This document shows positions 44,631 to 50,800 of a DNA stretch of 50,800 bases, in pieces (position 1 is the first letter of the stretch; the number at the start of each line of letters is the position of its first letter). The notes under the pieces were generated by a model. The model was not told the DNA's origin, ran no database searches, and worked only from the letters and a program-made list of their open reading frames with translations. Location: IMG/VR virus record IMGVR_UViG_2563366874_000012. One strand, written 5' to 3'. This DNA is from a virus (lineage: Duplodnaviria; Heunggongvirae; Uroviricota; Caudoviricetes). Position numbers and translations under genes: made by a program.

Positions 44631-44999
44631 GTGGAGTGGATATGGCAGCAGTAAAAATCTCAGGTGTGCTGAAAGATGGTGCGGGAAAACCAATACAGAA
44701 CTGCACTATTCAACTGAAGGCAAAGCGTAACAGCACCACGGTACTGGTGAACACGGTGGCCTCTGAAAATCCGGATGAAGCCGGGCGTTACAGCATGGAT
44801 GTTGAGCATGGCCAGTACAGCGTCATCCTGCTGGTTGAAGGTTTTCCGCCTTCACATGCCGGGACCATTACCGTCTATGAAGGCTCCAGACCAGGTACGC
44901 TGAATGATTTTCTCGGTGCCATGACGGAAGATGATGTCATGCCGGAGGCATTGCGTCGTTTTGAGGCAATGGTGGAAGAAGTGGCACGCAACGCCGAAG

Positions 45000-45650
45000 C
45001 CGCCTCTCAGAGCGCAGCGGCGGCAAAGAAATCCGAAACTGCAGCGGCATCATCGAAGAACGCGGCGAAAACCTCAGAAACGAATGCAGCTAATAGTGCA
45101 CAGGCGGCAGCGACCTCAAAGACTGCATCGGCAAACTCCGCGACAGCAGCCAAAAAATCAGAAACCAACGCGAAAAACAGTGAGACAGCCGCAAAGACGA
45201 GCGAAACCAACGCAAAGTCCAGCCAGACGGCAGCGAAAACCAGCGAAACGAATGCTAAAGCCAGTGAAACTGCGGCAAAAAACAGCCAGGCTGCAGCAGC
45301 TGAAAGCGAGAGCGCGGCAGCCGGTTCTGCGACTTCAGCAGCTGGATCAGCAACTGCTGCGGCTAACAGCCAGAAAGCTGCGAAGACGAGTGAAACTAAC
45401 GCAAAGTCCAGCCAGACGGCAGCGAAGACCAGCGAAACGAATGCCAAAGCCAGTGAAACTGCGGCGAAAAGCAGTCAGGATGCAGCGGCCCAAAGCGAGA
45501 GTGCCGCAGCCAGTTCTGCAAGCGCGGCGGCTGCTTCTGCCACTGCATCAGCTAACAGTCAAAAAGCAGCAAAAACCAGTGAAACCAACGCAAAGGTGAG
45601 CGAAACAGCGGCTGCGAACTCAGCGAAAGCATCGGCAGCAAGCCAGACGG
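45000..45650 (+). repeat. In-frame tandem repeat region within the tail fibre gene
   Basis: Reiterated AAKTSETNAK(S/A)S(E/Q)TAAK units; about 120-bp near-identical DNA segments around 45213-45330 and 45393-45510. Confidence 0.6.
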
Positions 45651-46763: not shown

Positions 46764-47267
46764 TTATTGATAGTGTTTTATGTTCAGATAATGCCCGATG
46801 ACTTTGTCATGCAGCTCCACCGATTTTGAGAACGACAGCGACTTCCGTCCCAGCCGTGCCAGGTGCTGCCTCAGATTCAGGTTATGCCGCTCAATTCGCT
46901 GCGTATATCGCTTGCTGATTACGTGCAGCTTTCCCTTCAGGCGTGATTCATACAGCGGCCAGCCATCCGTCATCCATATCACCACGTCAAAGGGTGACAG
47001 CAGGCTCATAAGACGCCCCAGCGTCGCCATAGTGCGTTCACCGAATACGTGCGCAACAACCGTCTTCCGGAGCCTGTCATACGCGTAAAACAGCCAGCGC
47101 TGGCGCGATTTAGCCCCGACATAGCCCCACTGTTCGCCCATTTCCGCGCAGACGATGACGTCACTGCCCGGCTGTATGCGCGAGGTTACCGACTGCGGCC
47201 TGAGTTTTTTAAGTGACGTAAAATCGTGTTGAGGCCAACGCCCATAATGCGGGCAGTTGCCCGGCAT
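46764..47267 (-). CDS. insB: IS1 InsB transposase ORF
   Basis: 167-aa ORF ...[43 protein letters not shown]... Confidence 0.9.
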
Positions 47268-47461
47268 CCAACGCCATTCATGGCCATATCAATGATTTTC
47301 TGGTGCGTACCGGGTTGAGAAGCGGTGTAAGTGAACTGCAGTTGCCATGTTTTACGGCAGTGAGAGCAGAGATAGCGCTGATGTCCGGCGGTGCTTTTGC
47401 CGTTACGCACCACTCCGTCAGTAGCTGAACAGGAGGGACAGCTGATAGAAACAGAAGCCAC
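47186..47461 (-). CDS. insA: IS1 InsA
   Basis: 91-aa [94 protein letters not shown]. Confidence 0.9.
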
Positions 47462-47792
47462 TGGAGCACCTCAAAAAAACCATCATACGCTAAATCAGTA
47501 AGTTGGCAGCATCACCCGATATTGGAGGAGCTAACAGACGGGTAAACGAAAACGCATCGCTTGAAAAAATGGTTATGGGGATGCGTGTAAAGTCAGAGCA
47601 GTCTACGTGCTCAGTAAGTAACGGGCATATATCCAGCGAAACAAAAACCACATGGTCCTGTATTCAGAACACCGCAATTATCCGTATTGGAGGCCAGACT
47701 ACAGCCGGGTTACGTCATTTATTTGGTCATGTCAGGAATTTCAGAATATGGCACAAGGCATTGACTGATGCTCAGGTGGGGGAGTCAATCTA

Positions 47793-49153: not shown

Positions 49154-49166
49154 GGGTAGGATGAAA

Positions 49167-49460
49167 ATGGATATAACACCTTTCCTTCATGCACTTTGTG
49201 CTGTGGCTGCGCAGGTACTGGTTGGTCTTTTTACCGGAAACTGGGCTTACGGGGCGATAGCCGGTTGTACGTTCTTCATTGCTCGTGAACATACCCAGGC
49301 AGAATATCGCTGGATTGAAATGTTCGGGCATGGCAAGCGTATGAATATGCCGTGGTGGGGTGGTTTTGATCCGCGCGTGTGGGATGTGGCAAGCCTGATG
49401 GATTTTTCTGTGCCGGTGGTGGCTTGTCTGCTGGTCTGGCTGTTGGTTAATCGTGGGTGA
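49167..49460 (+). CDS. Hypothetical small membrane protein
   Basis: 97-aa ORF MDITPFLHALCAVAAQVLVGLFTGNWAYGAIAGCTFFIAREHTQAEYRW...SVPVVACLLVWLLVNRG with two hydrophobic segments; AGGATGA SD-like upstream. Confidence 0.4.
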   Translation: MDITPFLHALCAVAAQVLVGLFTGNWAYGAIAGCTFFIAREHTQAEYRWIEMFGHGKRMNMPWWGGFDPRVWDVASLMDFSVPVVACLLVWLLVNRG

Positions 49461-49923
49461 AAAAGGGAGTTGTAAACGCAACACAGGAAGAGGTGCCGCT
49501 TCAGGTTGCTGGGAATAAGCGCCGGGGTCTGTTAAATCATGCCAATACGCTAATCGAGCCAGATATTGAGTAGCCTGCAGTCCGTCATGGCGTAATCGTT
49601 TTGTGATATGCTGCACGCCGTATGCAAGGAGCATGATTGCGCTCGGCTGGCGAGCGCTCGATAGTGCTACTATTGAATGATTGCTAGTCTAGGCGGATTG
49701 TACTTAAGTAATATGACGGTTCAAGGCGTTTAATCTGAAACCAGCCACATATTAGCCTTTTCAAACATTTCCTGAACACTCAGGCTTACCTGCTCTTTCT
49801 CGTGCTTGCTGGCATTTGTGTTGAGCGCCGGTGAATACTCTTACTCAACACTCCCAGAATTATATCTGTTGCATCAGGCAGACCATCAAAATTCTTTTGT
49901 CATAAACGAGTTCCACGAATAAT

Positions 49924-49942
49924 GTGCCCTATGGTAGGGCAC
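49924..49942. repeat. Perfect palindrome GTGCCCTA-tgg-TAGGGCAC in non-coding region
   Basis: 8-bp arms with 3-nt centre; 64 nt downstream of the stop of the minus-strand gene at 50006; no U-run, so operator-like rather than terminator-like. Confidence 0.5.
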
Positions 49943-50005
49943 TATTGATATGAATGAGTAGCTAAAAAGATTTTTCGTTATGTATTAATGTATCTGTCAC
50001 TTATT

Positions 50006-50800
50006 TTATAGTAAAGATGATATGCCAGCAAGAAATGGAGTAAATACTGTAATGTGTGCAGATACATTATTAATAAAGTCCTTATATGCTTCTTTAAAAC
50101 AGCCGCTTTGGTGACTGGCTGCCAGTGCCTGTACATTATCTATAAGGTGTGATTCTGTCGCGCCATCAAAGTTTTTCGATTTTATTGCCTCAATCATTTC
50201 ATTAAATATTGTGGGCTCATTATAATTTGTCGTAGTAGTTGCCGTAGCACCTGAAGAATGTATATTGATACTAGAACCGGAAATTCCACTGACATGAATA
50301 TTAGCTTCTTGTTTCATAAGAGGTAAACCATTCTCCATCTTGTATAGGTCACTATCTTGTAGCATCTGCAATGTGATACGTACTGCTGCTAATAGTTGTT
50401 CTTGCTTTTTGAATAAGGAACACATCTGTTCTACAGACCAAAGCTGAACTGCATTTTCTTCGCATGTTTTTTTAGCTATATTTGGCACTTCCGAATCATA
50501 ATTACCATAAACCCAAGTGTCCTTGAATCTTTCGATAATAGCTGTCAACGTTGGAAATTTACTGAAATCACTATTAATGGATAGTAACTCATCAGACATA
50601 TAAAGTGCCATATCTCTGCCTTCCGCATATACTGCTTCCACTTTATTCCGTGTTGCAAATGGTATTCTTGAAATAAAACGAAAATCCTCTTCATTTTTTA
50701 AATGGACCCAGTCTTTATCAAAACGGCTAAATTCGTACCCTATCGATAACAGTCTACTTATATATTGGGCTACTGATTCCAAATCTTTTCTTATGTCCAA
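50006..50800 (-). CDS. AT-rich hypothetical protein, 5'-truncated by window edge
   Basis: ORF open to the window end (at least 264 codons); C-terminal hydrophobic tail HITVFTPFLAGISSLL; composition much more AT-rich than the phage structural genes. Confidence 0.45.
   Translation of the reverse strand: MDIRKDLESVAQYISRLLSIGYEFSRFDKDWVHLKNEEDFRFISRIPFATRNKVEAVYAEGRDMALYMSDELLSINSDFSKFPTLTAIIERFKDTWVYGNYDSEVPNIAKKTCEENAVQLWSVEQMCSLFKKQEQLLAAVRITLQMLQDSDLYKMENGLPLMKQEANIHVSGISGSSINIHSSGATATTTTNYNEPTIFNEMIEAIKSKNFDGATESHLIDNVQALAASHQSGCFKEAYKDFINNVSAHITVFTPFLAGISSLL

What the first reader, a model, noticed from the sequence alone, without database searches (positions are those of the whole stretch)
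50006..50800. AT-rich gene of unknown function at the right edge, beyond the tail-fibre genes
A minus-strand ORF is open to the window end (at least 264 codons), has markedly AT-rich composition and a hydrophobic C-terminal tail, and shows no resemblance I can recognise. It sits just past the tail-fibre cassette, a region where prophages often carry cargo or defence genes, or it may lie in adjacent genome. A perfect palindrome GTGCCCTA-tgg-TAGGGCAC (49924-49942) lies 64 nt beyond its stop. I could not find attR or a tRNA gene in the 49.5-50.0 kb spacer.
Basis: partly seen in the sequence, partly recalled or inferred. Interest (0 to 1): 0.6.

Follow-up and report, generated by a model that had tools for sequence, protein, structure and literature searches.

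The report
Stand-alone prophage cargo gene, probable phage defence
The AT-rich ORF is a complete, real, horizontally mobile single gene carried as cargo at the end of an E. coli prophage. Its N-terminal half is a previously uncatalogued module that in hundreds of other bacteria is fused to classic immune "killer" domains, so it is most likely an untested anti-phage defence gene.

Summary
Window 50006-50800 (-) is a real gene with 35.6% GC against 47.6% for the rest of the window. It has a hydrophobic C-tail and a unique 8-bp hairpin 63 nt after its stop codon. The gene is not truncated: it starts with TTG at exactly the last base of the window (264 aa).

It lies inside a Rac-site lambdoid prophage, in a variable cargo slot between the tail fibres and sitABCD/attR. 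E. coli 042 has the same prophage arm without it.

The protein belongs to an unnamed family with no Pfam, NCBIfam, PHROG or PDB relative. The family is under purifying selection (dN/dS 0.11-0.23). It has no conserved neighbour. It occurs as the sole ORF of integron cassettes in three genera, in a P4-like satellite next to beta/cII (inferred defence hotspot), and in prophage accessory slots.

Its 160-aa four-helix N-domain recurs in about 1,370 cluster representatives from at least nine bacterial lineages. There it is always N-terminal to swappable effectors: TIR, SEFIR, CHAT, PNP and PADLOC candidate effectors.

In our protein the effector position holds a conserved Ser/Thr/Gly-rich segment and a small helical bundle with a hydrophobic tail. 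Best reading: a single-gene abortive-infection-type defence protein, possibly acting on the membrane. This is inferred and untested.

The parts
50006..50800 (-). Complete CDS of 264 aa plus stop (RefSeq WP_000354607.1, 'hypothetical protein'). The TTG start is at 50798-50800. The Shine-Dalgarno AGGAG lies just outside the window, at equivalent positions 50808-50812.
   Evidence: dN/dS is 0.11-0.23 in the family.
50321..50800 (-). N-terminal module, residues 1-160: a four-helix-bundle domain. Invariant or near-invariant residues are R4, D6, W31, K35, E38, D39, E55, Y58, G61, M126, Q133 and E156. This is the part shared with the TIR/SEFIR/CHAT/PNP fusion proteins.
   Evidence: AF2 pLDDT is 90-97 over this region. 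The profile search shows the domain alone in proteins of 300-740 aa. Fusion partners. Conservation.
50216..50320 (-). Residues 161-195: a Ser/Thr/Gly/Asn-rich segment (consensus ..I.VSGVSGSSININS.GATA..). It is predicted disordered but is conserved, and it partly alternates hydrophobic and polar residues.
   Evidence: pLDDT is 43-50. Conservation includes invariant S182 and near-invariant I178.
50009..50215 (-). Residues 196-264: a small three-helix C-terminal domain ending in the hydrophobic tail ITVFTPFLAGISSLL. It occupies the position that effector domains hold in relatives.
   Evidence: There is a weak match to the C-terminal half of the PADLOC candidate PDC-M14B.
49924..49942 (-). Perfect 8-bp stem / 3-nt loop hairpin, 63 nt after the stop codon. 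It is the only terminator-like site in the segment. The U-tail is weak (AUUAUUCGUG).
49492..50800 (.). Strain-variable segment of 1,586 bp in all, running to about 51077, beyond the window end. It is absent from the otherwise collinear prophage arm of E. coli 042. It holds a frameshifted DinI/MsgA-like pseudogene (49730-49916, -), the hairpin and the 264-aa gene. GC falls from about 50% to 35% near 49850.

Best explanation
A self-sufficient single-gene accessory unit (a prophage 'moron'), most likely an abortive-infection-type anti-phage defence protein.

Shown: the gene is complete, conserved, under purifying selection and consistently more AT-rich than its host DNA. It moves between genomes as a single gene with no conserved partner. 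It is found in integron cassettes, a P4-like satellite, prophage accessory slots and small islands.

Shown: its N-terminal 160-aa four-helix module is the constant N-terminal partner of interchangeable immune effector domains in relatives from many lineages. These effectors are TIR, SEFIR, CHAT protease, PNP-type nucleosidase, and the effector parts of PADLOC candidates PDC-S54, S66 and S35.

Inferred: the N-module senses infection or controls oligomerisation, and so gates whatever is attached to it.

Inferred with lower confidence (about 0.3): in this protein the attached part acts on the inner membrane and kills or arrests the infected cell. That part is the conserved beta-prone Ser/Thr/Gly segment plus a three-helix bundle with a hydrophobic tail.

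The frequent GTG/TTG start codons fit a product that must be kept at a low level.
For: - **Real and complete gene:**. dN/dS is 0.11-0.23.
- **Foreign composition:** gene GC is below flank GC in 18 of 18 loci.
- **Cargo slot:** a 1,586-bp segment is absent from E. coli 042. Strain 537-20 carries an acyltransferase plus a recombinase remnant at the same place.
- **Inside the prophage:**
- **No partner gene:** all-vs-all comparison of neighbours in 24 loci, and of downstream ORFs in 20 loci, found none.
- **Sole ORF of an integron cassette:** Stutzerimonas, Photobacterium and a Burkholderiaceae MAG.
- **P4-like satellite:** located between the primase and beta/cII.
- **Edwardsiella prophage:** int-cI region, beside DUF4145 and an AAA_15/21 pair.
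- **Other prophage slots:**
- **Viral contigs:** six IMG/VR loci.
- **Neighbours:** they include Septu PtuA, PDC-M01A/B, PD-T4-10_B and AriA/AbiL-type ATPases.
- **N-domain spread:** 1,371 cluster representatives, in lineages from Gammaproteobacteria to Cyanobacteria, Chloroflexota and Planctomycetota.
- **Fusions:** the order is always N-domain then effector. Partners are TIR_2/TIR/CAP12-TIR, SEFIR, CHAT, PNP_UDP_1, PDC-S54/S66/S35, bSEFIR and ThsB-like.
- **Start codons:** 17 of 23 are GTG or TTG.
- **Literature:** integron cassettes and P2/P4 hotspots are established reservoirs of single-gene defence systems (bioRxiv 10.1101/2024.07.02.601719; bioRxiv 10.64898/2026.03.17.712381; PMC9122126).
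Against: - No experiment exists for any member of the family.
- The protein itself matches no validated defence profile. The only PADLOC hit is a weak partial match to the untested candidate PDC-M14B (E 0.0017).
- Fusion to TIR, CHAT and similar domains shows involvement in conflict systems, but the N-domain could be only an oligomerisation scaffold.
- The C-tail hydropathy is below the usual TM cutoff, and AF2 models the C-domain as a soluble bundle. The membrane-effector step is therefore weak.
- The association with defence neighbours is descriptive, without a background control.
- No convincing sigma-70 promoter was found upstream.
- The gene is absent from 50,697 deposited phage genomes and from PLSDB plasmids.
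- In E. coli it is clonal: 105 of 5,426 genomes, all at least 99% identical.
Confidence: 0.55

Rival explanations
1. A conflict gene of another kind that serves the mobile element rather than host immunity. It could be an addiction/toxin module, a superinfection-exclusion factor acting at the envelope, or an anti-defence protein.
For: The evidence is the same mobile-element contexts and stand-alone mobility. The hydrophobic tail would also suit an envelope-acting exclusion protein. Low-efficiency start codons fit any toxic product.
Against: No antitoxin-like partner is conserved. The effectors fused to the N-domain (TIR, SEFIR, CHAT, PNP) are those of defence proteins, not of known anti-defence proteins. 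There is no signal peptide or full TM helix for an envelope protein.
Confidence: 0.17
2. A phage lytic-cycle or morphogenesis accessory gene of this prophage, for example related to tail-fibre assembly or lysis, given its place just after the tail-fibre genes.
For: Its position is next to tail-fibre genes. One homologue lies next to a minor-tail gene (L007) and another near a holin (L006).
Against: It is on the opposite strand to the tail genes. There is no PHROG match and no tblastn match in 50,697 phage genomes. Collinear prophages lack it (042). Homologues sit in integron cassettes, a P4-like satellite and non-phage islands.
Confidence: 0.04
3. A host-fitness or virulence cargo gene functionally linked to the adjacent sitABCD iron/manganese transporter.
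For: It lies about 470 bp from sitD, on the same strand, in a clinical-isolate lineage.
Against: sitABCD occurs at the same site without the gene in E. coli 042 and in strain 537-20. None of the 24 loci in other species carries sit genes or any conserved neighbour.
Confidence: 0.03
4. A decaying or spurious ORF with no function in this strain.
For: The DinI-like neighbour is a pseudogene and an IS1 disrupts the tail fibre, so the prophage is degrading. No clear promoter was found.
Against: The full-length frame is intact and at least 99% identical in 105 genomes. There are 23 invariant residues across 44 homologues down to 31% identity. dN/dS is 0.11-0.23. The AF2 model is confident, with pLDDT 87.
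Confidence: 0.03

Closest known systems
Single-protein TIR/SEFIR/CHAT defence proteins and PADLOC candidates (bSEFIR, ThsB-like TIR proteins, PDC-S54, PDC-S66, PDC-S35)
   Same: Relatives of this protein carry exactly these effector domains C-terminal to the shared N-module. The logic of a regulatory or sensor module followed by an effector, in one stand-alone gene, is the same.
   Different: The window protein has none of these effector domains. The PADLOC profiles cover only the effector parts, and PDC-S54 and PDC-S35 have other N-termini. The N-module is in neither PADLOC 2.0 nor Pfam.
[quoted passage not shown]
   Same: Homologues are the sole ORF of attC-flanked cassettes in Stutzerimonas, Photobacterium and a Burkholderiaceae MAG. 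Such compact cassettes are documented defence reservoirs (bioRxiv 10.1101/2024.07.02.601719; 10.64898/2026.03.17.712381).
   Different: I found no evidence that this family was among the cassettes tested. The E. coli copy has no attC site: there is no core-site pair and no attC-like fold.
PADLOC phage-defence candidate PDC-M14B
   Same: Its profile length is similar (267 positions). Its C-terminal half (positions 149-239) weakly matches residues 163-251 of this protein. Ten of 44 family members hit it, best E 1e-4, and one N-domain relative hits at 1.6e-10.
   Different: The match is marginal and covers only the linker and C-domain. PDC-M14 is a multi-gene candidate, whereas this gene has no conserved partner. 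PDC-M14 is itself unvalidated.
Small membrane-acting effectors of abortive-infection systems (lambda RexB; TM effectors of CBASS/Pycsar)
   Same: A small, partly hydrophobic module sits where enzymatic effectors sit in relatives. A toxic-product signature (non-ATG starts) is present. This comparison rests on my own knowledge of those systems.
   Different: There is no clear transmembrane helix (hydropathy 1.53, below 1.6), no nucleotide-sensing domain and no partner cyclase. No homology was detected.
Prophage-encoded defence proteins Tai (phi80 orf63) and BstA (phage BTP1)
   Same: They are encoded in prophage moron loci and P4-like satellites and act against other phages (PMC11364771, PMC8585504).
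   Different: tblastn of this protein against the phage collection found no match at E<=1e-3. That collection includes phi80. I did not confirm that BTP1 is in it.

Membership tests
Unnamed 264-aa family (WP_000354607-like) | Full-length collinear similarity, covering N-module, conserved linker and C-domain, with the same start and end | tested here: met
   85 homologues at E<=1e-3, most about 264 aa and covering 100% of the query. The alignment has 23 invariant columns.
N-module superfamily (four-helix module fused to immune effectors) | Profile match over residues 1-160 with conserved R4, D6, W31, E38/D39, Y58, G61, M126 and Q133 | tested here: met
   1,371 representatives at E<=1e-3 and 604 at E<=1e-10. 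Conserved columns persist in the fusion proteins.
AbiTii (Pfam PF18864; suggested by one UniRef name) | Match to the Pfam AbiTii model | tested here: not met
   No AbiTii hit at E<=0.1 in any of the 44 members, including P0067, which carries that name.
TIR / SEFIR / CHAT / PNP single-gene defence proteins | Presence of the catalytic effector domain | tested here: not met
   Pfam and PADLOC scans of the window protein find none. Only relatives have these domains.
PADLOC PDC-M14 (candidate, multi-gene) | Significant match to PDC-M14B together with the partner gene(s) of the candidate system | tested here: inconclusive
   The match is partial, with E 0.0017 for the window protein and 1e-4 at best in the family. 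No neighbour is conserved. A direct search for an M14A partner was not made.
Integron gene cassette | A single ORF followed by an attC site with R''/R' cores and an imperfect hairpin | tested here: not met
   For the E. coli copy there is only one R'-like heptamer, at 49849, and no R''. Region 49840-50005 folds no better than shuffles (z -0.84). The feature is met for the homologues in L004, L025 and L027.
Prophage moron / cargo gene | Located inside prophage boundaries, dispensable in collinear prophages, with its own terminator and deviant composition | tested here: met
   The promoter was not identified.
Validated anti-phage defence system | Experimental protection against phage | not testable with these tools
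   No paper mentions the accession. The PDC candidates appear in papers only as PADLOC output.
Tai / BstA prophage defence proteins | Sequence similarity to phi80 orf63 or BTP1 BstA | tested here: not met
   tblastn against 50,697 phage records found no match. phi80 is in that collection. I did not check whether BTP1 is present.

The most novel reading that the evidence does not exclude
The N-terminal four-helix module defines a large class of bacterial immune proteins, spread across many phyla, that no catalogue lists. In this class one constant sensor/regulator module drives interchangeable effectors. The E. coli protein carries a so far undescribed effector: a conserved beta-prone Ser/Thr/Gly/Asn segment plus a small helical bundle with a hydrophobic tail. 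This effector might work by membrane insertion, pore formation, or templated (amyloid-like) self-assembly rather than by enzymatic activity.
Probability: 0.3. Interest if true: 0.7.

Novelty: new variant of a known kind. Interest (0 to 1): 0.55.

Why it matters
If confirmed, this gives a compact 795-bp, single-gene defence candidate in E. coli that can be tested directly. It would also give a name and a function to a module present in more than a thousand protein clusters, from Proteobacteria to Cyanobacteria, Chloroflexota and Planctomycetota, that current defence catalogues (PADLOC 2.0, Pfam) do not recognise.

Because the same N-module is attached to TIR, SEFIR, CHAT and PNP effectors, finding what triggers it would explain the activation of many predicted immune proteins at once. 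The non-enzymatic C-terminal module could also be a new effector type.

Locally, the result shows that the right arm of Rac-site prophages carrying sitABCD is a variable cargo slot in clinical E. coli lineages.

Tried and rejected
- **Truncated gene:** rejected. The RefSeq CDS, the Shine-Dalgarno site, the nearby upstream stop and the homologue N-termini all place the start at the window's last base.
- **Adjacent chromosome rather than prophage:** rejected by the K-12 comparison and the integrase at the window start.
- **Known families:** Pfam, NCBIfam, PHROGs and PDB sequence searches (single sequence and profiles) gave nothing significant.
- **AbiTii lead from a UniRef name:** not reproduced.
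- **Conserved partner gene:** none found, including the roughly 200-230-aa ORFs that often follow the gene; they are unrelated to each other.
- **Second 264-aa ORF in the Enterobacter locus:** not a paralogue.
- **Palindrome as att site, operator or attC remnant:** no second copy exists, there is no attC core pair, and the fold is no better than shuffles. The terminator reading is kept as the simplest.
- **C-domain as a widely shuffled module:** not supported. Outside the family it was found only in a few short ORFs.
- **Wider N-domain search with the word-indexed database:** it returned mostly the same family. Contexts of the TIR/CHAT fusions therefore could not be looked up.
- **Rfam scan of the segment:** only sub-threshold hits.
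- **Literature:** no paper mentions the accession.

Full report
**Observation**

The minus-strand ORF at window 50006-50800 exists as described: 264 codons plus a stop. Its GC content is 35.6%, against 47.6% for the rest of the window. The last 19 residues (VSAHITVFTPFLAGISSLL) are the most hydrophobic stretch of the protein. Their Kyte-Doolittle mean is 1.53, slightly under the usual transmembrane cutoff. The palindrome GTGCCCTA-TGG-TAGGGCAC lies exactly at 49924-49942 and is unique in the window, with none found in 100 shuffles. No tRNA gene lies in 48.0-50.8 kb.

One correction is needed. The gene is complete in the window, not truncated. Identical DNA occurs in complete E. coli genomes. 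In NZ_CP128875.1, RefSeq annotates exactly this 264-aa CDS (WP_000354607.1, hypothetical protein). It starts at a TTG that corresponds to the last three bases of the window. An AGGAG lies 7 nt upstream, and only 13 further codons are open before an in-frame stop. Forty-three homologues start at the same residue.

**Where it sits**

The window begins with a Rac-type integrase. It then runs through the lambdoid tail genes: J, Lom, a side tail fibre interrupted by IS1, and a tail-fibre protein with an S74 chaperone domain.

In the complete genome the gene is followed by about 470 bp of non-coding DNA, then sitDCBA, uspF, ompN and ydbK. Compared with K-12, homology resumes only 200 bp beyond sitA. 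That point is about 150 bp inside the annotated right end of Rac, and the homology continues through the ttcC attR remnant and uspF at 99% identity. The gene and sitABCD therefore lie inside the prophage, between the tail fibres and attR. The attR position is inferred from this comparison.

E. coli 042 carries the same prophage arm. Its homology to our sequence breaks at window 49491 and resumes 1,586 bp later. Strain 537-20 has an acyltransferase and a recombinase remnant at the same place. This is a variable cargo slot.

The extra segment contains a frameshifted DinI/MsgA-like pseudogene (49730-49916), the hairpin and the gene. Similarity to phage DinI-like DNA ends at 49831, and GC drops to 35% near 49850. 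The hairpin is the only terminator-like site in the segment and is on the gene's own strand, though its U-tail is weak. No convincing promoter was found.

In E. coli the gene is present in 105 of 5,426 complete genomes. All copies are at least 99% identical and single-copy at one locus. This looks like one acquisition in one lineage.

**What the protein is**

Nothing significant matches in Pfam, NCBIfam, PHROGs or PDB sequences. The same holds for all 44 aligned family members and for profile searches against PDB sequences.

The protein belongs to a family of about 264-aa proteins in Gammaproteobacteria and Burkholderiales. Family members share 31-76% identity with it, and the alignment has 23 invariant residues. 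dN/dS is 0.11-0.23 wherever synonymous sites are not saturated. The gene is more AT-rich than its flanks in all 18 loci examined.

AlphaFold2 gives a confident model (pLDDT 87) with three parts:
- an all-helical N-domain, residues 1-160;
- a low-confidence segment, residues 161-195;
- a three-helix C-domain.

The "disordered" segment is unusually conserved, with the consensus SGVSGSSININS.GATA, and it partly alternates hydrophobic and polar residues.

**The key result**

A profile search of 1.84 billion cluster representatives finds 1,371 proteins at E<=1e-3. In many of them only the N-domain (profile positions 1-160) matches, inside proteins of 300-740 aa.

In a sample of 52 such proteins the remainder is one of the following:
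- TIR (three Pfam TIR families);
- SEFIR;
- CHAT protease;
- PNP/UDP phosphorylase;
- the effector parts of PADLOC entries PDC-S54, PDC-S66, PDC-S35, bSEFIR, ThsB-like and CBASS-type effectors.

In every protein examined individually in which an effector was detected, the order is N-domain then effector. The PADLOC profiles cover only the effector part, and the PDC-S54 and PDC-S35 profiles have different N-termini. The N-domain is thus an uncatalogued module that swaps with other N-terminal modules on shared immune effectors. It occurs in Gammaproteobacteria, Burkholderiales, Campylobacterota, Cyanobacteria, Verrucomicrobiota, Chloroflexota, Deferribacterales, Aquificales and Planctomycetota.

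In the window protein the effector position is held by the conserved linker plus the small C-domain. That part occurs almost only in this family. It weakly resembles the C-terminal half of the untested candidate PDC-M14B.

**Mobility and context**

There is no conserved neighbour in 24 loci, and the ORFs that follow the gene are unrelated to each other. The gene is the only ORF of attC-flanked integron cassettes in Stutzerimonas nitrititolerans, Photobacterium jeanii and a Burkholderiaceae MAG.

Other contexts:
- In Pseudomonas veronii it lies in a P4-like satellite between the primase and beta/cII. P4-like satellites are known to carry defence hotspots (PMC9122126).
- In Edwardsiella it lies between int/xis/exo and cI, beside DUF4145 and an AAA_15/21 ATPase pair.
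- In another E. coli prophage it lies in the nin region.
- It appears on six IMG/VR viral contigs.
- A bulk scan of 150 flanking ORFs shows P2-like, P4-like, integrase and conjugation hallmarks.
- The same scan shows Septu PtuA, PDC-M01A/B, PD-T4-10_B and AriA/AbiL-type ATPases. These counts are descriptive, with no background control.

Seventeen of 23 family genes start with GTG or TTG at the homologous codon. This suggests selection for weak translation, as is common for toxic products.

Integron cassettes are documented reservoirs of compact defence genes (bioRxiv 10.1101/2024.07.02.601719; 10.64898/2026.03.17.712381). I found no sign that this family has been tested.

**Mechanism**

*Shown:* this is a stand-alone, selected, horizontally mobile gene. 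Its N-module is the constant partner of interchangeable immune effectors.

*Inferred:* the N-module senses infection or controls assembly and gates the attached module, so the gene is a single-protein defence of the abortive-infection type. My confidence in a defence role is about 0.55-0.6.

*Inferred more weakly* (about 0.3): the C-terminal part is a non-enzymatic effector that acts on the membrane. The arguments for this are its position in the architecture, the hydrophobic tail and the beta-prone Ser/Thr/Gly segment. The arguments against are that the hydropathy is sub-threshold and that AF2 models a soluble bundle.

**Rivals**

- Another conflict role (addiction, exclusion or anti-defence), at about 0.17.
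- A phage morphogenesis or lysis accessory gene (0.04). Against this: the opposite strand, no PHROG or phage-genome match, and absence from collinear prophages.
- Cargo linked to sitABCD (0.03). Against this: sit occurs without the gene, and the gene occurs without sit.
- A dead ORF (0.03). Against this: conservation and dN/dS.

**Comparison with known systems and novelty**

The gene works like the single-gene sensor-effector defence proteins (TIR/SEFIR/CHAT types, BRiCs, P4-hotspot genes). It is not a member of any catalogued family:
- the AbiTii, TIR/SEFIR/CHAT and Tai/BstA tests were not met;
- the PDC-M14B test is inconclusive;
- the E. coli copy has no attC site.

I rate it a new variant of a known kind. 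The interest is moderate (0.55). The general idea, a defence moron in a prophage cargo slot, is expected. The unrecognised and widely spread N-module and the non-enzymatic C-module are worth testing.

Noticed in passing
window 46764-47516: An IS1 copy (InsB/InsA ORFs on the minus strand, with an exact terminal inverted repeat at 47494-47516) interrupts the side-tail-fibre gene. The reference strain TUM14771 appears to lack it, judged from a coordinate offset. The prophage in this window is therefore probably tail-fibre defective.
   Followed up: partly
beyond the window end; L001 13824-17682 (NZ_CP128875.1): The sitABCD iron/manganese transporter operon lies inside the prophage right arm, between this gene and the ttcC attR remnant. 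Relative to K-12 Rac it sits between Rac positions 1434768 and 1434806.
   Followed up: partly
window 49730-49916 (-): A frameshifted DinI/MsgA-like pseudogene lies immediately downstream of the hairpin. Similarity to phage DinI-like DNA (phi80, Citrobacter phage Chris1) stops at 49831, near the point where GC drops. The AT-rich module may have been inserted into or next to its 5' end.
   Followed up: partly
window 49164-49460 (+): A 98-aa hydrophobic protein follows the tail-fibre gene. It is a strong match to phrog_1443 (unknown function) and is also present in E. coli 042.
   Followed up: no
L001 13455-13777 (window-equivalent about 50904-51226, outside the window): The non-coding stretch between the gene and sitD has 80-95% matches in more than 1,300 E. 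coli genomes, mostly unannotated. A 48-nt piece also occurs near the right end of Rac. The only Rfam hit is sub-threshold (CssrB). It may be a conserved phage-end element or a small RNA.
   Followed up: partly
family-wide (L004, L016-L028, L046-L049 and others): About 74% of the 264-aa-type genes (17 of 23) start with GTG or TTG at the homologous codon, including the E. coli and Stutzerimonas copies (TTG).
   Followed up: yes
window 44900-45650: The side-tail-fibre ORF contains a long Ala/Ser/Thr/Lys/Glu-rich repetitive region (..KTSETNAKSSQTAAKTSETNAKASETAAK..) with a very strong AT skew (up to 0.6).
   Followed up: no
L019 and L020/L048: Vibrio brasiliensis, Aeromonas sobria and an IMG/VR viral contig encode family members with identical N- and C-terminal sequences, which would fit recent transfer between genera. 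L020 and L048 appear to be the same Aeromonas DNA.
   Followed up: no
L016 6903-7604, L020 6945-7580, L023 6820-7428, L026 6412-6993, L019 6941-7579: The ORFs just downstream of family members are unrelated to each other. Several are small proteins with N-terminal TM segments, and one has an RNAWEH (Rx4H, HEPN-like) motif. They may be further stand-alone accessory or defence genes.
   Followed up: no
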